64,000 nt of DNA, from positions 28,413 through 92,412 of the IMG/VR virus record IMGVR_UViG_3300037088_000882. One strand, written 5' to 3'. Shown here piece after piece: positions 3,553 to 61,538 of the stretch (its first letter is position 1; each line of letters begins with the position of its first letter). The position numbers and the translations under genes were made by a program. The stretch comes from a virus. The notes below the pieces were generated by a model. That model did not search any database. It worked only from the letters and a program-made list of their open reading frames with translations, and had not been told where the DNA came from.

Positions 3553-3639
3553 TGGTACCGGAAGAGTGACTTGAACACTCACGGGATTGCTCCCAATAGA
3601 TCTTGAATCTATCGCGTCTCCCAATTTCGCCATTCCGGC
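3553..3639 (-). tRNA. tRNA-Leu(CAA)
   Basis: Cloverleaf, anticodon arm ATAGA-TTCAAGA-TCTAT, long variable arm, encoded CCA. Confidence 0.95.
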
Positions 3640-3746
3640 TTAAGTGGTCAGGACAGGTTTACGCCCTACGATTTATGCCACACGCTTTTTCATTTTACTG
3701 TACAGTGTGGATCTATTAATATGAAGCATTTCAGCGATTTTTAAAG

Positions 3747-3820
3747 TGGGATTGGAGGAATTCGAATCCTCATTGTGTTGATTTTAAGTCAACTGCCTCT
3801 ACCAGTTGGGCTACAATCCC
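3747..3820 (-). tRNA. tRNA-Leu(TAA), short variable arm
   Basis: GGGATTG/CAATCCC acceptor; GTTGA-CTTAAAA-TCAAC; no CCA. Confidence 0.85.
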
Positions 3821-3868
3821 TCAATATAAATCACATGTCTACCAATTTCAACACCTGAATAGTAAAAA

Positions 3869-3951
3869 TGGAAGGGGCAAGATTTGAACTTGCGAACTCC
3901 GAAGAGACGGGATTTACAGTCCCGGGCCTTTAACCACTCGACCACCCTTCC
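3869..3951 (-). tRNA. tRNA-Tyr(GTA)
   Basis: CGGGA-CTGTAAA-TCCCG, long variable arm. Confidence 0.95.
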
Positions 3952-3958
3952 GTAAATT

Positions 3959-4044
3959 TGCGGATAAGAAGATTTGAACTTCTAAAAGGATTACTCCTCG
4001 CTGGTCTCTGAAACCAGTGTGTTTACCAATTCCACCATATCCGC
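3959..4044 (-). tRNA. tRNA-Leu(CAG)
   Basis: CTGGT-TTCAGAG-ACCAG, long variable arm. Confidence 0.93.
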
Positions 4045-4052
4045 GTAATATA

Positions 4053-4209
4053 TAGATTGCGTTCAAGTTACTAAAGCATTTACCCCTTTCGGGATACTTG
4101 TCGATTCTCAAGATCGATGCCTTACCAATTTGGCTATATTTCCATTCGGAAACACTCGGAGTCGAACCGAGATTAGTAATGTAGGCTTTAATTGTAAAAA
4201 CGCAATCTA
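4053..4209 (-). ncRNA. circularly permuted tRNA-like RNA 1 (YrlA/Y RNA-like)
   Basis: 11-bp terminal stem enclosing T arm, closed acceptor stem (TGTTTCC-GAAT-GGAAATA), D arm, then anticodon arm (TCGAT-CTTGAGA-ATCGA). Confidence 0.75.
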
Positions 4210-4212
4210 ATC

Positions 4213-4299
4213 TGGTGCGGTCGGTCTGATTTGAACAGGCATAGGATTGCTCCCACATGCACCTCAAGCATGCGTGGCTACCAATTACACCACGACCGC
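4213..4299 (-). tRNA. tRNA-Leu(GAG)
   Basis: CATGC-TTGAGGT-GCATG, long variable arm, CCA. Confidence 0.95.
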
Positions 4300-4307
4300 A
4301 TAATTTA

Positions 4308-4452
4308 TAAAGCCATATCCGAGTTATCAATGCTATCTTGATAGATTCTATTCTATTGCCTTTACCATTTGGCTATTCCCCCATAATTGGGGGAACGTGG
4401 AATCGAACCACGAATTTTTAATGTAAGCATCAACGGTAAAGATATGGCTTTA
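4308..4452 (-). ncRNA. circularly permuted tRNA-like RNA 2 (YrlA/Y RNA-like)
   Basis: 12-bp terminal stem; T arm CGTGG-TTCGATT-CCACG, closed acceptor TTCCCCC-AATTAT-GGGGGAA, D arm, hairpin with 6-nt loop; same architecture as RNA 1. Confidence 0.75.
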
Positions 4453-4465
4453 ATTTCAAAGAACT

Positions 4466-4554
4466 TGGTGCGAATGTAGAGATTCGAACTCTAAAGAGCT
4501 GTTAAGCTTCCAGATTCTAAGTCTGGCCCCTGCTACCAATTCGGGTACATTCGC
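4466..4554 (-). tRNA. tRNA-Leu(TAG)
   Basis: CCAGA-CTTAGAA-TCTGG, long variable arm, CCA. Confidence 0.95.
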
Positions 4555-4563
4555 ATATATTTA

Positions 4564-4634
4564 AGACGGTGCCCAGGATCGAACTGGGGCTGTCGGTTTT
4601 GCGGACCGATGCCTTACCTCTTGGCTACACCGTC
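4564..4634 (-). tRNA. tRNA-Cys(GCA), C33 variant
   Basis: TCGGT-CCGCAAA-ACCGA, U73 discriminator, no CCA. Confidence 0.88.
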
Positions 4635-4800: not shown

Positions 4801-4847
4801 AAACAAAAAACCCTGCTTGATCTTTAGAACCAAGCAGGGTTTTGTTT
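4801..4847 (-). terminator. attenuator terminator 1
   Basis: AAACCCTGCTTG...CAAGCAGGGTTT followed by U tract. Confidence 0.9.
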
Positions 4848-8875: not shown

Positions 8876-8948
8876 AGCCGATGAGAGGGCTCAAACCTCC
8901 AACTTGCTGATTACAAATCAGCTACTCTATCAATTGAGTTACACCGGC
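8876..8948 (-). tRNA. tRNA-Thr(TGT)
   Basis: GCTGA-TTTGTAA-TCAGC; D and T loops slightly non-canonical; no CCA. Confidence 0.85.
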
Positions 8949-10249
8949 GTATGAACATATACGTTTTTAATATACTCCAAAGCATCTTCTTGATTCAAGA
9001 TCGTCCCCTCGAGTTGTTGGTCCTCGATATCGGTTAAGATAATACCGAACTCTGGGCCTTGTTTAAAGCCCATATTAAGCAAATCCTTACCAGTCACGAT
9101 TCTTGGAGGACGAATTTCTTCTGGCTCATAAGTCTTGAGCTTTTCGATAACGAAATCATAGTTCTCAAGATTCCTATGCGATGATAAACAATCTACCCGA
9201 TGAAGAGCTAAATGATCTTCAATATTAGGTAGAGCCAGAAATCTTTTCAGTCGAGAAACTCTCATTTTCTTCACATGCATAAATTTCATGTGGTTTTCGA
9301 CTAAGTCTGAAATTCGAGTTACGAAATCATTTGAAAATTTCAACCTTTTCAAAATTCCCCAAGCAATATACTTACCCTTGATATCGTGGCCACTAAACCT
9401 TATACGGTCCTCGAAGGTTTGAGTAGGTGGCTTACCCACATCATGCAATAAGGTTGCCATTCTCACCTCAATAGAAGCCTCAGTAGGAAGATTTTCAAGA
9501 GCTTTTATCGTATGCTCGAGAACATCTCCTTCGGGGTGGTATTGAGGTGGTTGCTCACAACCCTTCATGGCCCGGACCTCGGGCAGGATATGATCGATTA
9601 ATCCAGTATCAAAAAGAAGGTTTACTGCCTTCCTGTAATTACCTGCCATAAGAATCTTAGTAAGTTCATCTGCAACTCTCTCGGCCGAGACCTGGGTTAT
9701 TTCAAAGGCATGCCTTTGAACTGCCTCTATGGTGCCTGGATCGATTTTGAAATCAAACCTGGCAGAAAAACGTACAACTCTCATCATACGTAATTTATCC
9801 TCAGCAATACGGTCATCAGGATTACCTATAAGCTTTATGATACCCTTATGAAGATCTTCAATACCTCCAACAGAATCGTAAATCTTATCTTCAATTGGGT
9901 CATAGAACATCCCATTGATGGTAAGGTCCCTACGTTGAGCATCCTCTTCCATGGTGCAAAAAGAAACGCTATCGGGCCGTCGACCATCCGAGTACACTCC
10001 ATCAGTCCTATAAGTAGCTACTTCGACTTCCTGGCCTTCATGGACGACTACAATGACTCCGAAAGCTTTGCCAACTGCAAGAGTCTTATCGAATAATTGC
10101 TCGACCATTTCGGGACGTGCGTTAGTGGCTATGTCGATATCAGTTGAAGTCCTTTGTAAGAGCATGTCTCGGACATAGCCTCCAGCAAAGAGAGCTTCAT
10201 AGCCATGGTCTCGTAATTTTTTAACTACATATAATGCTTGTTGTAACAT
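8939..10249 (-). CDS. cca: CCA-adding tRNA nucleotidyltransferase with HD domain
   Basis: GGYVRD, DIDIAT, RRDLTIN, HPEGD and LLHDVGK motifs. Confidence 0.9.
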   Translation of the reverse strand: MLQQALYVVKKLRDHGYEALFAGGYVRDMLLQRTSTDIDIATNARPEMVEQLFDKTLAVGKAFGVIVVVHEGQEVEVATYRTDGVYSDGRRPDSVSFCTMEEDAQRRDLTINGMFYDPIEDKIYDSVGGIEDLHKGIIKLIGNPDDRIAEDKLRMMRVVRFSARFDFKIDPGTIEAVQRHAFEITQVSAERVADELTKILMAGNYRKAVNLLFDTGLIDHILPEVRAMKGCEQPPQYHPEGDVLEHTIKALENLPTEASIEVRMATLLHDVGKPPTQTFEDRIRFSGHDIKGKYIAWGILKRLKFSNDFVTRISDLVENHMKFMHVKKMRVSRLKRFLALPNIEDHLALHRVDCLSSHRNLENYDFVIEKLKTYEPEEIRPPRIVTGKDLLNMGFKQGPEFGIILTDIEDQQLEGTILNQEDALEYIKNVYVHTPV

Positions 10250-10250
10250 A

Positions 10251-10562
10251 TTATCCTATTTTGATATTTTCTTCTTCAATTTTAACCCCTTGTTTTTCAA
10301 GGGATTTGAGATCTCTTTCCAGTTCCTTTATATCTTGTTTTTTATGCTCCAAAACATATATGATAAATCTTTTTATAGCTATGGCATCTTCATCTGAAAC
10401 TTGAACAGTTGAATAGCTTGAAAATTGTATCTCTGATTTTGTTGGATCATCTTTTTTATAGCACAGTATTCGTGTGTTTGCACTACCGCCTGTGAAAGAA
10501 TATTCAATGCCTTCTGAAAAAAAAGATCCAGTACAGACATGCATAATATTAACATTTTTCAT
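10251..10562 (-). CDS. hypothetical protein
   Basis: 103 aa ORF in operon. Confidence 0.55.
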   Translation of the reverse strand: MKNVNIMHVCTGSFFSEGIEYSFTGGSANTRILCYKKDDPTKSEIQFSSYSTVQVSDEDAIAIKRFIIYVLEHKKQDIKELERDLKSLEKQGVKIEEENIKIG

Positions 10563-10581
10563 ATTTTATCCTATTTAAATT

Positions 10582-10659
10582 TGGGGTGGAAGACGGGGCT
10601 TGAACCCGCAACCACTGGCTTCACAGGCCAGGGCTCTAGCCAATTGAGCTACCTCCACC
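10582..10659 (-). tRNA. tRNA-His(GTG) with encoded G-1
   Basis: CTGGC-CTGTGAA-GCCAG; G-1:C73; CCA. Confidence 0.95.
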
Positions 10660-10665
10660 ATAAAA

Positions 10666-11355
10666 TCAGTCTTCTCTTACTTGAACAAATTTTTCGATGT
10701 ATTCTCGATCTTTAGTGAAAATCGGAATGTTTAAATCTACATCCCCATTAACAACACAAAAACCACGTTTCCGCACAACTGGATATTTATCGAAATTTAT
10801 TCCTTTTTTCTGGAATAGTAACTCTTGTATTTCCTTACAAGAGACTTTATTTAATTCCTTGTGTGAAAAGTTTTCTCGCCCTGCCATCTGGATTGAGTTC
10901 CTGGTGGCATCCACTTGTCTCCATATGAAATAGTTTACTACCTCATCCTGAGGAATTGAAAAAACTCTACTATCAAAACAGACGTTGCTTCCATAGAGTC
11001 GAGAAAAGACTGCACTGGCCAAGGAAGCTGATATTGAAATCATTTTTCGTGCATCGTATCCGAACCAGGCATCTGTCGAGATCTTTTTATAATCTGTTAA
11101 AAGAAAGCTTATTTCGTCGGATTGGCAGTAACAAAAACCGCACCCTTGAATGTCAGCTAATACCGTATTAGCAGTTGCGATCATTTGCTCGGTAAACTCC
11201 ATGGACCATCCTTTTCCGAATCTTTTTCTGGTGATGGTGTGGAAGGCCCGGCCATCGATCCTGAGTATTACCGGAATCCGTCTTGGTAAAGTCCAAGCTG
11301 AGACTGATTCATAACGCTTCATGCGATCGCCTAGGTCTAACCTATCACTACTCAT
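10666..11355 (-). CDS. thg1: tRNA-His guanylyltransferase Thg1-like 3'-5' polymerase
   Basis: RMKRYE, RIDGRAFH, QSDEIS, FDSR and WRQVDATRNS motifs. Confidence 0.93.
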   Translation of the reverse strand: MSSDRLDLGDRMKRYESVSAWTLPRRIPVILRIDGRAFHTITRKRFGKGWSMEFTEQMIATANTVLADIQGCGFCYCQSDEISFLLTDYKKISTDAWFGYDARKMISISASLASAVFSRLYGSNVCFDSRVFSIPQDEVVNYFIWRQVDATRNSIQMAGRENFSHKELNKVSCKEIQELLFQKKGINFDKYPVVRKRGFCVVNGDVDLNIPIFTKDREYIEKFVQVRED

Positions 11356-11602
11356 TTTTATTCCGATCTGTTATATAAGATTTAAGTCTTTTAATTATCC
11401 CATTTCCTGTTTCTATACCGTAGAAATCATTCACACAGTTATGGATTCTTTCTACGATTCGATCTGATTTTGATCCTTGTTTTACTGCGTTTTCGTAATA
11501 ATCAATCCAGTCTACAAGCATGTTGTTTTTTTGCAGTACTTCTAACACAAATTCAAGAGGTAGCCCTATAGATGATACTACAAAATGGATTCCTCTAACC
11601 AC
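11348..11602 (-). CDS. small protein resembling an alanyl-tRNA synthetase helical subdomain
   Basis: F-x-SSIGLPLE...LVDW resembles the AlaRS motif FKLYDTYGFPLD...VD. Confidence 0.45.
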   Translation of the reverse strand: MVRGIHFVVSSIGLPLEFVLEVLQKNNMLVDWIDYYENAVKQGSKSDRIVERIHNCVNDFYGIETGNGIIKRLKSYITDRNKNE

Positions 11603-11684
11603 TATTTTTTTATCGGTCGAGTATCCTGAGAACTGTGATACGTTGCGTTTAGCATGAAGCTATTACCCTTCTATTATACATAAA

Positions 11685-11770
11685 TGGCGGAGGCGAGACG
11701 AGTCGAACGTCCAAGGCCTTTCGGCCGGCGGTTTTCAAGACCGCTGAATTACCAGTTATCCTACGCCTCC
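11685..11770 (-). tRNA. tRNA-Ser(TGA)
   Basis: GCGGT-CTTGAAA-ACCGC, long variable arm, G73, CCA. Confidence 0.95.
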
Positions 11771-11780
11771 ATATATCTCA

Positions 11781-11853
11781 AGCCCACATCCTGGATCGAA
11801 CAGGAGACCTCATCCTTACCAAGGATGTGCTCTACCAACTGAGCTATGTGGGC
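11781..11853 (-). tRNA. tRNA-Thr(GGT)
   Basis: CATCC-TTGGTAA-GGATG; no CCA. Confidence 0.95.
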
Positions 11854-11856
11854 ATA

Positions 11857-12297
11857 TTACCTTAACCCGTAAAGGTACAGCAATCCTGCCCATCCACTTG
11901 GAAGGCATTCTGGTGCTGTTTCTAATTTCTTTCCGTATTTCACAGCCATTTCTAAAAAATACTTAGCATGAAAGAATGCCTCTAACATTGGCCGAGTGTG
12001 TTTGAGCCATTCCTTATTATGTTTTGAATCAAATACTTTACCAGTTCCTTCCTGGTATATTTGATCGAAGTCATCATTAAACATAACTCCTACAGGAGCT
12101 AAACTTTTTAAAGTTTCTATTATCTTTTGAGTGCTTCCCTGTATGCCGTATACTTTAAAAGAGGAATGGTAGAAACGGTAAACGTAATCCTCATAACACC
12201 AATGGTCATTAATATCTTCCAGGAGCTTTTCAAGCTCGGGGAGTCTTGCCTTGATATTTACCAAGAGGTCTTTACTAAGATCTTGTCTCTCACTCAT
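11857..12297 (-). CDS. hypothetical protein (start MSERQ; the longer ORF call runs through tRNA-Trp and the attenuator)
   Basis: SD GGGAG before ATG 12297. Confidence 0.7.
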   Translation of the reverse strand: MSERQDLSKDLLVNIKARLPELEKLLEDINDHWCYEDYVYRFYHSSFKVYGIQGSTQKIIETLKSLAPVGVMFNDDFDQIYQEGTGKVFDSKHNKEWLKHTRPMLEAFFHAKYFLEMAVKYGKKLETAPECLPSGWAGLLYLYGLR

Positions 12298-12317
12298 AAG
12301 AACTCCCTTTTTAAAGA

Positions 12318-12379
12318 TGGCAGGAGTGGATCGAACCCCCATCGTCGGTTTTGGAGACCGGGTGCTTAGCGACACTCCT
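12318..12379 (-). tRNA. truncated tRNA-Trp(CCA)-like gene (62 nt)
   Basis: AGGAGTG/CACTCCT-G-CCA acceptor, CTCCAAA loop; D arm minimal, T-stem 3' strand missing. Confidence 0.6.
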
Positions 12380-12381
12380 AT

Positions 12382-12424
12382 AAAACAAAAAACCCCGCCG
12401 AATCTTTCGATCGAGCAGGGTTTG
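12382..12424 (-). terminator. attenuator terminator 2
   Basis: AAACCCTGCTCGA...TCGGCGGGGTTT followed by U tract. Confidence 0.88.
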
Positions 12425-12452
12425 ATTTGAAACACTTTATTTTTACTTAACC

Positions 12453-12551
12453 TTACTCGATCTCCAATATAGTATGCCAATGTGCCCATGATGTCGATGT
12501 GGTGGCCATTGCATTATTAGAGGATGATGTAGTAAGATTAATTGTTTTCAT
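12453..12551 (-). CDS. leader peptide 2 (Thr/Ser/Trp/His/Ala): MKTINLTTSSSNNAMATTSTSWAHWHTILEIE
   Basis: 32-aa apparently leaderless ORF; stop region pairs with the terminator 5' strand. Confidence 0.9.
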   Translation of the reverse strand: MKTINLTTSSSNNAMATTSTSWAHWHTILEIE

Positions 12552-12558
12552 GGTTATA

Positions 12559-12587
12559 ATTATACTATATATTTCGGTTCGTGTCAA
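12559..12587 (-). promoter_or_regulatory. consensus sigma70 promoter of tRNA array 2
   Basis: TTGACA-17 nt-TATAAT, 7 nt before the leader ATG. Confidence 0.9.
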
Positions 12588-12597
12588 TATTTTTAAT

Positions 12598-13056
12598 TTA
12601 TTTCATATTTCTGCTTTTGAACTCTTCTATTATTTGTAAATGATCAAAAGCCATTTTTTCAGGTAATTCTGATATACGGAACCATTTAGCCTCTTTAGCG
12701 TCATCTCTAGCCTCTACTGCATCAATAAGTTTCTTGCTGTATGGGATGAGGGCATAATAGACAACAGACACTACTCGGCCTCTCGGGTCTCGGCCTGGGT
12801 CTCCAAAAGTTTTAAATTGTTTTAGAGGGATATTTTTTAAATCCTTGGTAGACAGAGATGTTTCTTCTTTTAATTCTCTGTAGGCGGCTTCTTCAAGGGT
12901 TTCTCCTGAGTCCAAATAGCCTCCAGGTATTGCCCACATATCTTTAAATGGGTTATTCACACGTTTTATGAGTAATATGTTTACCCATTTTCTTATTGGG
13001 GTCATGATCACAATATCAACTGTTACGTTTTGTTTTTCGTATTTTCTTTTATTCAT
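12598..13056 (-). CDS. Nudix hydrolase (ADP-ribose pyrophosphatase/NrtR N-domain-like)
   Basis: GGYLDSGETLEEAAYRELKEET Nudix box; RDPRGR; AFDH. Confidence 0.9.
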   Translation of the reverse strand: MNKRKYEKQNVTVDIVIMTPIRKWVNILLIKRVNNPFKDMWAIPGGYLDSGETLEEAAYRELKEETSLSTKDLKNIPLKQFKTFGDPGRDPRGRVVSVVYYALIPYSKKLIDAVEARDDAKEAKWFRISELPEKMAFDHLQIIEEFKSRNMK

Positions 13057-51059: not shown

Positions 51060-53000
51060 TTAGTCGGCATCATCGAGAAATAGACTCTTTTCAGTAATTA
51101 TGTGTTTCAATCTCTTATTGGTATAATCAACATATTTTTCTGAGATATCAAATCCTATGTAATTTCGTCCAAGTTTCTTGCACTCTTCAGCAGTTGTACC
51201 ACTTCCAATAAATGGATCGAACACTGTAGACCCTATCCAGCTAAGCATTTTAATAAGGCGCCTGGGTAATTCTGGAGGAAATGGGGCAGGATGAATTGAA
51301 TTATTTATCAATCGTGAAGATTCTTTATAAGCAGCTCGAGCAAATTCCCAGGGAGTTAAAGACCATTCTACAAACTCATCTTTAGTAAGATCGGTTTCAC
51401 CTTTGTCCTGTAGCTCGTAAGTATCCTTACAAAAAATAAGGATGTATTCCATAGCTGTTGGAAAAGAAGGATTATTTGGGCTCTTAAACGATCCCCAAGC
51501 ACAATTATGGTATAATACTTTACCTAAGTAACTATTATCTTCTTCTACTTCCATATTATAAACTTCAATATTTTCAACATTTTCAGTAATAATTTCTTTT
51601 ACCCTATAGAAAGCGTGGTAGCTCCCAATTTTAACTTTGTTGTAGAGATATTTTCTATTATCCATGTCAAAAGGAGCATCACATATATCATGTAGCTTTT
51701 TTCCGTATTTACCACAAAGTCTTATTTCATAGCATTCGTGTTTACCTTGAATGGTTCTTCCGTCTTTTAATATGCTTGAGGATAATTTTTTTCTTTTGTG
51801 TATAGATGGTGGCAATTTTAGGCGTATAAGAATATCACGTAATTGATAAACTAAATATTCAGATACTGTGACAAGAGAGCTTTGATGGGAATTAAAATGA
51901 CCGTCAGCGTGAAAAACACCTTTAATTAACTCTTTTTGAAGATCATAAGGAACTTGAAATAAAAAGGGGTGCATTTTTTTTTGATGCGCATATTCCCCAC
52001 ATAAAATTTTAAGCATCTTTGGTAGAATTTTATTTGAACTGATAATTATTCTTTTTAAATTATCTCGGTATTCTTTATGTGTTGTAAATCCTAATTTTAG
52101 GGCTATAGAAACTATATCATCAGTTAAGTAATCTTCATTTGGCCCAAAATCTAAACGAATTTCATTTTTATGTATACTACCATCTCCTAAATAATAACCT
52201 ATAAGTCTGAATAATTCTTTTGAGTTGTAATTAAAAAGAATTCCAGTTATTTTTTCTAACCTTTTATTGAAATTATTTACTCCTGCATGATGTTGCGTTG
52301 TATATCGAGGGACCATTAAGTAATACTCATAAGGCTCTAATTCTATAGGAATTTTCCACAAGGGAGTAAGCGGGACTCTTTTTCTTGGACAGCCCTTAGG
52401 GCAAAATTTACTAATCAGGCTTTTACGGTGCAATACTGGTGATACATATAAAGGATGCTCACCATAAACCGTAATCGGCTGTCCCCCTATTGTATGTATT
52501 GTATATTTATTTCCTGTAAAAACGGATTTATGTAAATCTAAAACTTTTCTAAAGCGTCGTTTATGTGTTAAAACCATATCGCCTATTTTTACATCTTTTA
52601 TATGTTTATAGCCATCTAAAGTATTGATTAATTCTTCTGGTGGTAAACATCTATTACTGGTATTGTTTTTATTCCAAGCAATTGTTGTGTATTGGAGATA
52701 GTGCAAAGAATGGGTCATGAATTGAATAATATCGGAGTGGGTAGGTATCTTTCCATTTTCTCCGTCTCCAATATTAATAACGACTCTACCTCCCTTTTTT
52801 AATTTAGGGTAGAGGGCTTTAAATATTTCTCGTAACCATTTTATATAATTTTTGTGGCCCATTTTATCGTTGAATGAATCATAACCTTCAAGACCTACAT
52901 TATATGGAGGACTTGTGATTACAAGATCGATACTTTTATCCGTGAGTTTGGGTATTAATTCTAAACAATCCCCTTGGACTATTTCATTTAAAAATTGCAT
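51060..53000 (-). CDS. beta-class N4-C/N6-A DNA methyltransferase with intein
   Basis: TSPPY, HPAPFP and DPFIGSGTT motifs. Confidence 0.9.
   Translation of the reverse strand: MQFLNEIVQGDCLELIPKLTDKSIDLVITSPPYNVGLEGYDSFNDKMGHKNYIKWLREIFKALYPKLKKGGRVVINIGDGENGKIPTHSDIIQFMTHSLHYLQYTTIAWNKNNTSNRCLPPEELINTLDGYKHIKDVKIGDMVLTHKRRFRKVLDLHKSVFTGNKYTIHTIGGQPITVYGEHPLYVSPVLHRKSLISKFCPKGCPRKRVPLTPLWKIPIELEPYEYYLMVPRYTTQHHAGVNNFNKRLEKITGILFNYNSKELFRLIGYYLGDGSIHKNEIRLDFGPNEDYLTDDIVSIALKLGFTTHKEYRDNLKRIIISSNKILPKMLKILCGEYAHQKKMHPFLFQVPYDLQKELIKGVFHADGHFNSHQSSLVTVSEYLVYQLRDILIRLKLPPSIHKRKKLSSSILKDGRTIQGKHECYEIRLCGKYGKKLHDICDAPFDMDNRKYLYNKVKIGSYHAFYRVKEIITENVENIEVYNMEVEEDNSYLGKVLYHNCAWGSFKSPNNPSFPTAMEYILIFCKDTYELQDKGETDLTKDEFVEWSLTPWEFARAAYKESSRLINNSIHPAPFPPELPRRLIKMLSWIGSTVFDPFIGSGTTAEECKKLGRNYIGFDISEKYVDYTNKRLKHIITEKSLFLDDAD
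51504..52649 (-). mobile_element. intein with LAGLIDADG homing endonuclease (382 aa)
   Basis: R|CLPP...YHN|C; LIGYYLGDG and IKGVFHADG. Confidence 0.9.
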
Positions 53001-53192: not shown

Positions 53193-54194
53193 TTAATCAG
53201 CAAACAGGTCGTTAAGAACGTCTGTTTCTGCTTTAGCCTCAGTTTCAATTTTAGGCTGAGTGCTTGGAACATAATACTGCCGACCTGTAAGGCTGCAGAA
53301 ACGAGTCCAATTTGAATTTGGGTCTTTATTCTCAGGTATAGATGAGAAATTGATAGCGTGTTTTACCATAGCGTCCATGGCATCTACCTGTGCCACGGCA
53401 TGGGCCTCGGCAAACATGGTTTTACGTATACCCTCGTCTTCGTGATGTGCTACAATGATATGGGAAAGTTTTAAGAATGTAACATCATCCATTGGTATAT
53501 TCAATCTTCTGGCTATATCAAGGAGCATACCGTAACCAATAAATGTATGGTGTAGAAGCCGGCCAGCATCGGACATTTCTATAACGAGATCCCAATGGTA
53601 GCTGTTTATCTTACCGATGTCATGAATTAGGCATCCTGTGAGGACTATATCCGAGTCCAGGTTCTGGTATTGAGCAATGAGTTCACCTGCCCGTATCATC
53701 GAATAAGAGTGCTCAGCAAGGCCTCCAATGTAATTATGGTGGACTTCTCCGACTCCACCTGGACAGGACATGTACTGAGGTCTTAGGTTTCCCAGGATTT
53801 CAGCCCATATCTTCTCGCAGATCTCGTTTTTAATTTTAGACTGAAAAGTCATTAACCCTGATTCGATCTCTTTGATCTTATCGGGTGGAAGAGAGGGTAT
53901 GAGCTGGCTTATATCATAGGTTTTGGCTTGAGCCATACTTTTCACTTGTATTTGAGATACTTCTTTAAAAGTGCTGAGTTCTCCTACGACTTCGACAACG
54001 GATTTATTTTTGAGCCAAGTTTTATAAGAGGAGAAGCCGTCCCACATAATTGCTTTAATTGATCCCGAGAGATCGGTGAACTCGCAAGCCATGAAAGTTC
54101 CAGGCTTATTAGCGAAAGGTTTATAATCAATTTTAGATATGAGGAAGGTTCCCTTAATGGGTCCTGAAGTTTTAGTTTTGTAATCTTTAATCAT
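53193..54194 (-). CDS. YhaM-like OB-fold/HD 3'-5' exonuclease
   Basis: HHNYIGGLAEH, HDIGK and AHH motifs. Confidence 0.85.
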   Translation of the reverse strand: MIKDYKTKTSGPIKGTFLISKIDYKPFANKPGTFMACEFTDLSGSIKAIMWDGFSSYKTWLKNKSVVEVVGELSTFKEVSQIQVKSMAQAKTYDISQLIPSLPPDKIKEIESGLMTFQSKIKNEICEKIWAEILGNLRPQYMSCPGGVGEVHHNYIGGLAEHSYSMIRAGELIAQYQNLDSDIVLTGCLIHDIGKINSYHWDLVIEMSDAGRLLHHTFIGYGMLLDIARRLNIPMDDVTFLKLSHIIVAHHEDEGIRKTMFAEAHAVAQVDAMDAMVKHAINFSSIPENKDPNSNWTRFCSLTGRQYYVPSTQPKIETEAKAETDVLNDLFAD

Positions 54195-56772: not shown

Positions 56773-57142
56773 ATTTCCAGTATTTACGAACCCTTATATG
56801 CTTACCATTAGGCATGTTATGGTAAGTCACATTGCCACTCATATCTGTTCTTTTATAAGAAGTGTTCATAAGCCATGTACGGAGCCGTATAGTATTATAC
56901 TCAGCTGTTCGTACTAGTTCTTCTGTTATGGGAACGTTTTCCTTAAATCTATGAATGCCTCCAGCACAGCCCCCATTACACCATACGTAATGTAAGGCAT
57001 CGAGTTCGAGATTCTTTTTTCTCGTCGCTTCATTGAGCATTTGAAGGGCGTGTTTTTGATGATGGATTAATTCTTCAAGTTGTTTTATATGTATAGCTTG
57101 GTTTTTTATTTTTAATTCTAGATCAGACATTATAAGCCCCAT
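56732..57142 (-). CDS. hypothetical protein
   Basis: ORF track. Confidence 0.55.
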   Translation of the reverse strand: MGLIMSDLELKIKNQAIHIKQLEELIHHQKHALQMLNEATRKKNLELDALHYVWCNGGCAGGIHRFKENVPITEELVRTAEYNTIRLRTWLMNTSYKRTDMSGNVTYHNMPNGKHIRVRKYWKFVLWLAGLSKKWM

Positions 57143-58146
57143 TTAAGAATGTATTCATTAGATAAGGCCTTGAAGCTGATTTTTTCTAAACTGTCATACA
57201 GCCTGAAAACCGTACCCTCTTGTAAAAGTTGGGGGTTTAAAGGGCTTGGAATATCGGCCATTTTTAAAAGTTCATCACAAGTATGGTTCAGAATGAAATT
57301 ATCATTGAGGATCGGAACTGTTTTTAATCCTAATCCTTTAACAAATGAAAGCATATCATCAAGCTTTAAGTACTGCTGTTTTTTAATGTCAAAAACATAA
57401 AACACATAAAGGTCAACACCTTTTAATTTGATCCGATTGCTTTGAATTCCTTCTCCTGCAGTTTCAGCCTGGATAGCATACCCATCAGGAAGTTTTTCTT
57501 TCAAATTGTATCGGTTAGCAAGTTTCCAAAATATGTTTTTATCATTCTCTATAAATTCTAAGCTATGACCACAGGCCCCGAATATTCCATCACTTTTGTA
57601 AAAGGTTGATGAAGTTCCATCTATTTTAGATGTTAAGTAAAATCTTTGCCCCTTATATTTATTAAGCAAGCTAAGACAGTTTTGAACTCTCTCTTCATCA
57701 GTTTTCGGTATTATTCCTGGTAATAACCCCTTCATTTCTCCGGCCAGGTGTACGGGAATAGGGGGTTCGTATCTATAAACCCCAATTTGCTTAGTAACTT
57801 CAGTTCCGATTTCTCGATCGGTTATTTCTGGGAATTGAAATAAAGGGAGAGCTAGACCTTGCGAGATTTGGCCTCTGAGCCTTATTGTCTTTAAGCGGAA
57901 TCCTATAACTTCTTTACCGTCCTCTATAATGGATTTTTTTAAAGTATTTCCTTTTGAAAGGAAGGAGAACTGGGGAATATTAGGTAATAATGAATCCACT
58001 TCAAAGTACAAACAGAGATCTTGAGGTTTGAAATTACCTTTTTGTGTTACACACCACCATCCTTGAATTCTTATTTTTTCAATAGCATCGGCCCCTTCAA
58101 TGGGCAAAACTTCTTCAATACGCTGTATAGAGGCGAGTTTACGCAT
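57130..58146 (-). CDS. RNA ligase (DRB0094/Rnl2-like)
   Basis: RKLASI..ADAIE N-domain, KTDEER, KIDGTS, EG.V and SFK motifs. Confidence 0.9.
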   Translation of the reverse strand: MRKLASIQRIEEVLPIEGADAIEKIRIQGWWCVTQKGNFKPQDLCLYFEVDSLLPNIPQFSFLSKGNTLKKSIIEDGKEVIGFRLKTIRLRGQISQGLALPLFQFPEITDREIGTEVTKQIGVYRYEPPIPVHLAGEMKGLLPGIIPKTDEERVQNCLSLLNKYKGQRFYLTSKIDGTSSTFYKSDGIFGACGHSLEFIENDKNIFWKLANRYNLKEKLPDGYAIQAETAGEGIQSNRIKLKGVDLYVFYVFDIKKQQYLKLDDMLSFVKGLGLKTVPILNDNFILNHTCDELLKMADIPSPLNPQLLQEGTVFRLYDSLEKISFKALSNEYILKWGL

Positions 58147-61457: not shown

Positions 61458-61538
61458 AGGGTAGTACCGAGCCGCTCTTATAAGGCGGATAGTCGTAATG
61501 GTATGTGGAAGATATGAGTTCAAGTCTCATCTACCCTA
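61458..61538 (+). tRNA. D-armless tRNA-Ile(TAT)-like RNA
   Basis: AGGGTAG/CTACCCT-A acceptor, CCGCT-CTTATAA-GGCGG, T arm ATGAG-TTCAAGT-CTCAT; about 25-nt variable region. Confidence 0.6.

What the first reader, a model, noticed from the sequence alone, without database searches (positions are those of the whole stretch)
4053..4452. Two circularly permuted tRNA-like RNAs with a shared, covarying scaffold inside the Leu array
On the minus strand both read: terminal stem, TTTAC, 8-bp stem, YTACATTA, T arm, acceptor 3' strand, short loop, acceptor 5' strand, D arm (TAGCCAAA-TGGTAA-GGCA), anticodon-like hairpin, CAAG, stem partner, AACTYG, terminal stem. The stems differ in sequence but keep pairing (ATTAAAGC/GCTTTAGT against GTTGATGC/GCATTGAT), while the linkers are conserved. 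Established: bacterial YrlA Y RNAs have a permuted T-acceptor-D module with a closed acceptor stem and bind Ro60/Rsr. Unlike typical YrlA these keep an anticodon arm (TGA in copy 1, a 6-nt loop in copy 2), and no Ro/TROVE gene is in the window. They could be Y RNAs, decoys for anticodon nucleases, or permuted tRNA precursors needing ligation.
Basis: partly seen in the sequence, partly recalled or inferred. Interest (0 to 1): 0.8.

Follow-up and report, generated by a model that had tools for sequence, protein, structure and literature searches.

The report
Phage tRNA-shaped Y-like RNA pair
Two small RNA genes inside a giant phage's tRNA operon encode inside-out copies of a tRNA clamped by a conserved stem; relatives of these RNAs sit beside genes for Ro60-type ring proteins in other phages and bacteria, so they are most likely an undescribed branch of the known "Y RNA" tRNA mimics and not broken tRNAs.

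Summary
On the minus strand, 4452-4308 (copy A) and 4209-4053 (copy B) fold into one architecture. It consists of an outer 12-13 bp stem, an internal loop (UUUAC / AACUY), an 8-9 bp stem and a YUACAUUA junction. Then come a T arm, a 7-bp acceptor stem closed by a 4-6 nt loop, U8-A9, a D arm and an anticodon-like hairpin; B also has a GAAA hairpin.

A covariance model built from A, B and one homologue found about 45 distinct members in phage contigs and bacterial genomes, with covariation in all six helices.

In eleven related phage contigs, one or two copies lie directly upstream of a TROVE+vWA Ro60 gene. Other members lie beside two divergent Ro60-like protein families. Rfam's YrlA model does not hit A or B, but it weakly hits their Ro60-adjacent relatives.

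My verdict is a new variant of the known YrlA/Y-RNA class. It differs by keeping a tRNA-like anticodon arm, lacking the GNCGAA motif, and sitting in a tRNA operon.

No Ro60-like gene lies on the 92-kb record, which is about 20% of the genome, so the partner here is inferred.

This scan has noted similar phage RNAs before on other DNA.

The parts
4308..4452 (-). Copy A, a whole Y-like tRNA-mimic RNA of 145 nt. It starts 13 nt after tRNA-Leu(UAG) and ends 8 nt before tRNA-Leu(GAG).
   Evidence: model R1 gives 145 bits
4440..4452 (-). A: outer stem, 5' strand (UAAAGCCAUAUCU). It pairs with 4308-4320.
4426..4434 (-). A: second stem, 5' strand (GUUGAUGCU). It pairs with 4326-4334. The internal loop is UUACC (4435-4439) opposite AACUC (4321-4325).
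4396..4412 (-). A: T arm, CGUGG-UUCGAUU-CCACG.
4376..4395 (-). A: closed 7-bp acceptor hairpin, UUCCCCC-AAUUAU-GGGGGAA.
4358..4373 (-). A: D arm, GCC-AAAUGGUAAA-GGC, preceded by U8 A9.
4341..4356 (-). A: anticodon-like hairpin, AUAGA-AUAGAA-UCUAU, with a 6-nt loop.
4053..4209 (-). Copy B, a whole Y-like tRNA-mimic RNA of 157 nt. It starts 3 nt after tRNA-Leu(GAG) and ends 8 nt before tRNA-Leu(CAG).
   Evidence: model R1 gives 144 bits
4198..4209 (-). B: outer stem, 5' strand (UAGAUUGCGUUU). It pairs with 4053-4064.
4185..4192 (-). B: second stem, 5' strand (AUUAAAGC). It pairs with 4070-4077. The internal loop is UUACA (4193-4197) opposite AACUU (4065-4069).
4155..4171 (-). B: T arm, CUCGG-UUCGACU-CCGAG.
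4137..4154 (-). B: closed 7-bp acceptor hairpin, UGUUUCC-GAAU-GGAAAUA.
4119..4134 (-). B: D arm, GCC-AAAUUGGUAA-GGC.
4101..4117 (-). B: anticodon-like arm, UCGAU-CUUGAGA-AUCGA. The loop is canonical (Y32 U33 ... R37 A38), with the triplet UGA at 4108-4110.
   Evidence: Rfam tRNA 24.8 bits over 4091-4143
4081..4096 (-). B: extra hairpin resembling a variable arm, UAUCCC-GAAA-GGGGUA.
3553..4634 (-). The surrounding tRNA operon on the minus strand, in transcription order: Cys, Leu-UAG, A, Leu-GAG, B, Leu-CAG, Tyr, Leu-UAA, Leu-CAA. The terminator of the upstream gene is at 4807-4843.
8939..10249 (-). Phage CCA-adding enzyme. This is context only: it could add CCA if the acceptor loop were cut.

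Best explanation
The two elements are genes for Y-RNA-like tRNA mimics of the YrlA type. They are transcribed with the tRNA operon. The enzymes that trim the neighbouring tRNAs probably release them. Each RNA has two modules. The first is a closing 'handle': an outer stem, a conserved internal loop (UUAC / AACUY), a second stem and a YUACA junction. The second is a head that reproduces a tRNA in rotated order: T arm stacked on a 7-bp acceptor stem sealed by a short loop, D arm, and an anticodon-like arm.

Shown here: the fold, its covariation, membership of a family spread over phages and bacteria, and the association of that family with genes for Ro60-type ring proteins.

Inferred: the handle docks a Ro60-type protein, encoded either in the unsequenced about 80% of this phage or by the host. 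The tRNA-shaped head would then tether or bait a tRNA-binding enzyme, as proposed for bacterial Ro60-Y RNA particles. This phage also carries tRNA-repair genes.
For: - **Fold and covariation:**
- **Family size:** model R1 finds members in 9 groups of phage records and in about 12 cellular genomes.
- **TROVE phage clade:** in L112 the element ends 27 nt before a 570-aa TROVE+vWA_Ro60 ORF on the same strand. Ten further loci whose Ro60 is 63-79% identical were searched, and nine carry one or two tandem copies just upstream.
- **First divergent protein family:** the L111 element abuts a 557-aa ORF that is Ro60-like by the ESM Atlas (TM 0.60-0.72 to TROVE clusters) and by hhalign (94% probability, E 1e-7, against phage Ro60). 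A homologue lies 1.4 kb from the element in G008 and about 1 kb from it in a Myxococcaceae genome. All 5 Myxococcota genomes that carry the RNA have this protein.
- **Second divergent protein family:** DUF2828+DUF7788 ORFs lie 163 nt and 496 nt from elements in G009 and L182.
- **Rfam YrlA:** the model gives 32.4 bits (E 0.003) on the Ro60-adjacent copy L127:3787-3901. The loci upstream of Ro60 in CcrColossus, a phage named as carrying Y-like RNAs (PMC12135203), score only 30-42 bits.
- **Shared handle:** the handle of A and B (...AC / AACUY-G) is closest to those of L106, L111 and the Myxococcota copies, all of which go with the second Ro60-like family.
Against: - Rfam YrlA does not hit A or B at E<=10.
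- The proposed Rsr-contact motif GNCGAAN0-1G is absent.
- No TROVE, DUF2828, vWA_Ro60, VWA_2, VWA_CoxE or L111-type protein is found on the 92-kb record.
- None of these is found in G001 either. That record holds the most similar element (158 bits) and is rated 97% complete.
- None is found in G007, rated 100% complete.
- No transcript, binding or processing data exist.
Confidence: 0.7

Rival explanations
1. Two-piece tRNAs from permuted genes. RNase P cuts the acceptor loop at +1, the 3' trailer is trimmed, and CCA is added by the phage enzyme. The long handle then holds the two pieces together as a chargeable tRNA. Copy B would be a tRNA-Ser(UGA).
For: - The acceptor stem is exactly 7 bp, stacked on the T stem, with G at +1.
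- B has a canonical UGA loop, G1-C72, G2-C71, A3-U70, G at position 73 and a hairpin like a variable arm.
- 14 of 44 distinct members encode N73-CCA as the first four bases of the acceptor loop, against about 0.7 expected by chance.
- The phage encodes a CCA-adding enzyme.
- M. smegmatis YrlA is cut by RNase P and receives CCA in vivo (PMC4201824).
Against: - Copy A has a 6-nt loop.
- L106 and L116 lack the anticodon hairpin altogether.
- A and B themselves encode no CCA.
- The phage already has an ordinary tRNA-Ser(UGA) at 11685-11770, which is not similar to B in sequence.
- A conserved handle and an association with Ro60-like genes are not expected for a translating tRNA.
Confidence: 0.08
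2. Decoys that act without Ro60. The RNAs display tRNA-like anticodon arms to soak up host anticodon nucleases or other tRNA-targeting defence proteins.
For: - About 21 of 25 phage members with the hairpin have canonical Y-U-NNN-R-A loops.
- The triplet changes on an otherwise constant stem between close relatives: CUUUUAA, CUGUUAA and CUGCUAA on CUUCA/UGAAG.
- The elements sit in a tRNA operon of a phage with RNA ligase, Thg1-like and CCA enzymes.
- No Ro60-like gene is found in G001 or G007.
Against: - Copy A's loop is not canonical, and some members have no anticodon hairpin.
- The most conserved non-tRNA part is the handle, which a simple decoy would not need.
- The family tracks Ro60-type genes.
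Confidence: 0.15
3. Non-functional remnants of rearranged or tandemly duplicated tRNA genes.
For: A tandem dimer of one tRNA gene, truncated at both ends, would give exactly the T-acceptor-spacer-acceptor-D-anticodon order. That origin is plausible.
Against: There are compensatory changes in every helix across distant phages and bacteria. The handle is conserved, and so is the position next to Ro60-type genes.
Confidence: 0.03

Closest known systems
YrlA (Y RNA-like A; Rfam RF02553; Chen et al. 2014, PMC4201824)
   Same: Both have a closing helix and a circularly permuted tRNA-like domain in the order T arm, closed acceptor stem, D arm. In both, relatives are encoded next to Ro60 on the same strand, often in pairs. 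Two family members (L106, L116) have the plain YrlA topology.
   Different: A and B carry an extra tRNA-like anticodon hairpin, and B also a hairpin like a variable arm. The acceptor stem is a full 7 bp. There is no GNCGAAN0-1G motif. There is no RF02553 hit. The elements sit inside a tRNA operon with no Ro60 gene on the record.
Yrl1/Yrl2 of Thermus phage phiLo (PMC12135203)
   Same: Two Y-like RNAs lie upstream of a phage Ro60 gene. The TROVE-carrying relatives found here have the same layout.
   Different: According to that paper, the phiLo RNAs were picked by a CGAA bulge and a stem-bulge-stem shape. No tRNA-like head or anticodon arm is described for them.
D. radiodurans Yrn1
   Same: Chen et al. 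model an 'anticodon arm' with a 5-bp stem and a 6-nt loop, which is like copy A.
   Different: The order of arms relative to the ends differs. Yrn1 has no full D arm, and it carries a recognisable Ro-binding helix.
Circularly permuted tRNA genes of Cyanidioschyzon merolae (from my own knowledge)
   Same: The 3' half lies upstream of the 5' half, joined at the acceptor end.
   Different: Those genes rely on a bulge-helix-bulge motif and on ligation through a circular intermediate. Here the ends form a long helix with a 5+5 internal loop, and some members have no anticodon arm.

Membership tests
YrlA (Rfam RF02553) | Score at or above the family's gathering threshold (69 bits). | tested here: not met
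   There is no hit on A or B at E<=10. Relatives score 23-32 bits. The loci upstream of Ro60 in phage CcrColossus also score only 30-42 bits.
YrlA (Chen et al. 2014) | A permuted tRNA-like domain: T arm, acceptor stem closed by a loop, D arm, with the nucleotides for tRNA tertiary contacts. | tested here: met
   The elements have a UUCGAYU T loop, a 7-bp closed acceptor stem, U8 A9, and a GG-containing D loop. Covariation is shown.
YrlA (Chen et al. 2014) | Encoded within 4 kb of a Ro60 ortholog, on the same strand. | tested here: not met
   No TROVE or other Ro60-like gene lies on the 92-kb record, which is a fragment of about 20% of the genome. The criterion is met for homologues.
YrlA (Chen et al. 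2014) | A GNCGAAN0-1G motif near the 5' end. | tested here: not met
   Reading the sequences shows no such motif in the 5' strands. The conserved elements there are UUAC, AACUY and YUACA instead.
YrlA / Y RNA | Bound by the Ro60/Rsr protein. | not testable with these tools
   This needs co-immunoprecipitation or a gel-shift assay.
tRNA (RF00005 / ARAGORN) | A contiguous cloverleaf with an open acceptor end. | tested here: not met
   ARAGORN does not call either element. Rfam tRNA gives 24.8 bits, below the 29-bit threshold, on part of B only.
Permuted tRNA genes (C. merolae type) | A bulge-helix-bulge motif at the joined termini, and a canonical 7-nt anticodon loop. | tested here: not met
   The termini form a 12-13 bp helix, a 5+5 internal loop and an 8-9 bp helix. 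Copy A has a 6-nt loop.

The most novel reading that the evidence does not exclude
The sealed acceptor stem is a processing site. RNase P opens it, and CCA is either encoded (as in many relatives) or added by the phage enzyme. The result is a nicked, CCA-ended, tRNA-shaped RNA. Its exchangeable anticodon arm baits host tRNA-targeting nucleases, while the handle recruits a Ro60-type ring protein. Together they would form a phage counter-defence or tRNA-surveillance particle whose specificity is set by the anticodon triplet.
Probability: 0.15. Interest if true: 0.85.

Novelty: new variant of a known kind. Interest (0 to 1): 0.55.

Why it matters
Bacterial and phage Y RNAs are known, but what their tRNA-like module does is still open. 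This branch keeps a complete cloverleaf. Its anticodon loops are canonical, yet the triplet changes between close relatives. Many members encode N73-CCA in the sealed acceptor loop.

The RNAs travel with three different Ro60-type protein families, two of which Pfam TROVE does not recognise. That gives concrete, testable handles on two questions: what the tRNA mimic is for (bait, tether or substrate), and how widely Ro60-like particles occur in large phages. It also explains unannotated gaps in phage tRNA arrays.

Tried and rejected
- **Rfam:** gathering and E<=10 scans gave no family for A or B.
- **GenBank phages:** blastn of the region hit only ordinary tRNAs.
- **Junction pattern:** TACATTA...GGTTCGANTCC mostly hit ordinary class-II tRNAs that have a UACAUUAGAAAC variable region. 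Only L084 was a clear homologue.
- **Divergent Ro60 candidate:** I tested the 508-aa ORF downstream of the array (342-1868). It has no Pfam or PHROG hit, no BLASTP similarity to Ro60, and Ig-like repeats, so I rejected it.
- **Structure of the DUF2828 protein:** a single-sequence AlphaFold model failed (pLDDT 37). Its Ro60-like nature therefore rests on its domain make-up (DUF7788 with a weak VWA_2 hit) and on an earlier unchecked note.
- **Recent copying from a tRNA:** B's anticodon and variable arms are not copies of the phage's own tRNA-Ser(UGA), so recent gene conversion is rejected.
- **RtcB:** not present on the record.

Full report
**What is there.** The window is part of a 92.4-kb IMG/VR virus record rated about 20% complete, with about 37% G+C. 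A minus-strand tRNA operon spans 4634-3553. In transcription order it reads Cys, Leu-UAG, [A], Leu-GAG, [B], Leu-CAG, Tyr, Leu-UAA, Leu-CAA. The two gaps hold the reported elements: A at 4452-4308 and B at 4209-4053.

Each folds far better than shuffled controls (z = -5.3 and -5.1, with 0 of 200 shuffles as stable). Both fold into the same shape:
- an outer stem of 12-13 bp;
- a 5+5 internal loop (UUACC/AACUC in A, UUACA/AACUU in B);
- a second stem of 8-9 bp;
- a junction YUACAUUA plus about 5 nt;
- a 5-bp T arm with a UUCGAYU loop;
- directly abutting it, a 7-bp acceptor stem closed by AAUUAU (A) or GAAU (B);
- U8 A9, then a 3-bp D stem with a GG-containing loop, then A26;
- a 5-bp hairpin.

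That last hairpin has a canonical anticodon loop in B (CUUGAGA, triplet UGA) and a 6-nt loop in A (AUAGAA). B adds a GAAA-tetraloop hairpin that resembles a class-II variable arm.

**Is it a family?** Neither ARAGORN nor Rfam recognises the elements. The Rfam YrlA model (RF02553) gives nothing at E<=10. A pattern scan found one close homologue, L084:1518-1664, with compensatory changes.

I built covariance model R1 from A, B and L084 (146 positions, 41 pairs). A second pattern scan required a T loop followed within 19-27 nt by AUAGCCAAAU. Scored with R1, it found members in eight more viral contigs at 34-77 bits.

On 28 distinct sequences, all six helices covary. Paired cells are 92.7% against 59.7% in shuffles. 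38 of 41 pairs show double substitutions. Slid controls reach 45% at most. The alignment is model-fitted, which favours pairing, but the margin is large.

The acceptor hairpin is 7 bp in nearly all members, with many different sequences.

**What do the relatives sit next to?**
- **TROVE Ro60.** In L112 the element ends 27 nt upstream of a 570-aa ORF with TROVE and vWA_Ro60 domains, on the same strand and just after a tRNA array. I searched for that protein in viral contigs. This gave ten further loci at 63-79% identity, and nine of them carry one or two tandem R1 hits (45-75 bits) immediately upstream of the gene. In the tenth, L132, R1 gave only a weak match (17.9 bits) there, and Rfam YrlA scores 38.4 bits just upstream of it.
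- **A second Ro60-like family.** The L111 element overlaps the start of a 557-aa ORF with no Pfam match. The ESM Atlas places this ORF with TROVE/vWA_Ro60 clusters (feature score 0.94-0.95; TM 0.60-0.72 over residues 60-548). Its family profile matches the phage Ro60 profile by hhalign (94% probability, E 1e-7, across the MIDAS/vWA region). A 30%-identical homologue lies 1.4 kb from the element in the complete record G008.
- **DUF2828+DUF7788.** In the complete record G009, a 480-aa ORF of this type ends 163 nt before the element. The same pairing recurs in L182, 496 nt apart, where DUF7788 also gives a weak VWA_2 match.

**Cellular genomes.** A scan of bacterial genomes found full-length members at 66-88 bits in five Myxococcota, and others in several phyla. 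None of the five Myxococcota has Pfam TROVE. All five have the L111-type protein (E 1e-15 to 1e-17). It lies about 1 kb downstream of the element in one genome and 11 kb away in another. Two further genomes have TROVE and one has DUF2828.

**Link to Rfam YrlA.** RF02553 scores 32.4 bits (E 0.003, full-length) on the Ro60-adjacent copy L127:3787-3901. That is the same range (30-42 bits) it gives upstream of the Ro60 gene of CcrColossus, a phage named as carrying Y RNA-like RNAs and a Ro60 homologue (PMC12135203, citing Chen et al. 2014). I therefore place A and B in the YrlA-type Y RNA class in the broad sense, as a branch the current Rfam model does not reach.

**What is different.**
- Canonical YrlA has T, acceptor, D and a variable stem-loop, with the long helix taking the place of the anticodon stem (PMC4201824).
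- Most members here also carry a hairpin right after A26 that looks like a real anticodon arm. About 21 of 25 phage copies have Y-U-NNN-R-A loops.
- The triplets vary: UGA, UUU, GUU, GCU, ACG, GAA and AUA in phages, and CAU, UCU, UUG, CAA and others in bacteria.
- Close relatives keep the stem (CUUCA/UGAAG) but change the triplet (UUU, GUU, GCU).
- Two members (L106, L116) lack the hairpin and so have plain YrlA topology.
- The GNCGAAN0-1G motif is absent. The conserved non-tRNA features are the internal loop (…AC opposite AACUY or CUUU) and the YUACA junction.
- 14 of 44 distinct closed acceptor hairpins begin their loop with N73-CCA, for example ACCAUGC in Myxococcota and GCCAAAUU in the Ro60-adjacent phage copies. 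About 0.7 would be expected by chance, although the cases cluster in four or five lineages.

The N73-CCA pattern fits the published finding that M. smegmatis YrlA, which has a 7-bp acceptor, is cut by RNase P and receives CCA in vivo (PMC4201824). A and B do not encode CCA, but the phage has its own CCA-adding enzyme.

**What is missing here.** No Ro60-type gene of any of the three kinds lies on the 92-kb record. I searched for TROVE, DUF2828, vWA_Ro60, VWA_2 and VWA_CoxE, the L111 protein and its family profile. The same searches are negative for three other records:
- G001, which holds the closest element and is rated 97% complete;
- G007, rated 100% complete;
- G004, 330 kb and 67% complete, which shares a 1043-aa protein with this window.

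So the partner in this phage is inferred. It may lie in the missing about 80% of the genome, be host-encoded, or be too divergent to detect. Alternatively these copies may act without one.

The window does carry a tRNA-maintenance set: a CCA enzyme, a Thg1-like protein, an RNA ligase, an HD+OB protein and a NUDIX protein. This fits the RNA-repair context described for jumbo phages (PMC7824862).

**Mechanism and odds.**
- **Y-like RNAs with a protein-docking handle (0.7).** They would be released from the tRNA precursor. The handle docks a Ro60-type ring, and the tRNA-shaped head engages a tRNA-binding factor.
- **Decoys independent of Ro60 (0.15).**
- **Chargeable two-piece tRNAs after an RNase P cut (0.08).**
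- **Inert remnants of tRNA genes (0.03).**

The first three are not fully exclusive.

**Novelty.** I found no paper that describes permuted, Ro60-associated RNAs with complete anticodon arms in phage tRNA operons. The class itself, and the layout of two Y-like RNAs upstream of a phage Ro60 gene, are published (PMC4201824, PMC12135203). Earlier notes of this scan report similar phage RNAs on other DNA. One of them gave me the DUF2828 lead, which I then tested here.

Noticed in passing
Loci L001-L097 (for example L001:8833-8862, L009, L039): Dozens of phage class-II tRNAs (Leu-UAA, Tyr-GUA and others) have a variable region of about 15 nt, UACAUUAGAAAC(N3-5), with no obvious stem. The UACAUUA motif is the same as the junction 5' of the T arm in elements A and B.
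   Followed up: no
window 3746-3820 (-): ARAGORN calls a 75-nt 'tRNA-Leu(UAA)' with a 5-nt variable loop, which is a class-I shape. That is unusual for a bacterial-type leucine tRNA.
   Followed up: no
window 51060-53000 (-): A 646-aa N6/N4 DNA methylase has a LAGLIDADG domain inserted between its two methylase stretches. It may be an intein or a fused homing endonuclease.
   Followed up: no
window 8939-13056 (-), 53193-54194 (-) and 57130-58146 (-): The window carries a tRNA-maintenance set: a CCA-adding enzyme, a Thg1-like 3'-5' polymerase, a NUDIX protein, an HD+OB-fold protein, and an RNA ligase with a PHA02142 OB domain. These lie beside two further tRNA clusters.
   Followed up: partly
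L155, L146, L193, L180, L187, L185 (Myxococcota genomes): Chromosomal members of the same RNA family score 66-88 bits. Their acceptor loops read ACCAUGC or ACCAAC in five of the six (ACUUAU in L155), and their anticodon-like triplets vary. Each of the genomes searched also has an L111-type Ro60-like gene but no Pfam TROVE.
   Followed up: partly
L174, L195, L197, L198, L201 (Nannocystaceae, Chitinophagaceae and Leptospiraceae genomes): Local R1 hits cover only T arm, closed acceptor (6 or 7 of 7 pairs), D arm and a canonical anticodon arm (triplets UGU, ACG, GUU, UAG, GAU). No recognisable handle is aligned. Their nature is unresolved.
   Followed up: no
window 61458-61538 (+): The Rfam tRNA model gives 37 bits here, next to the two tRNA-Glu genes. 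ARAGORN does not call it.
   Followed up: no
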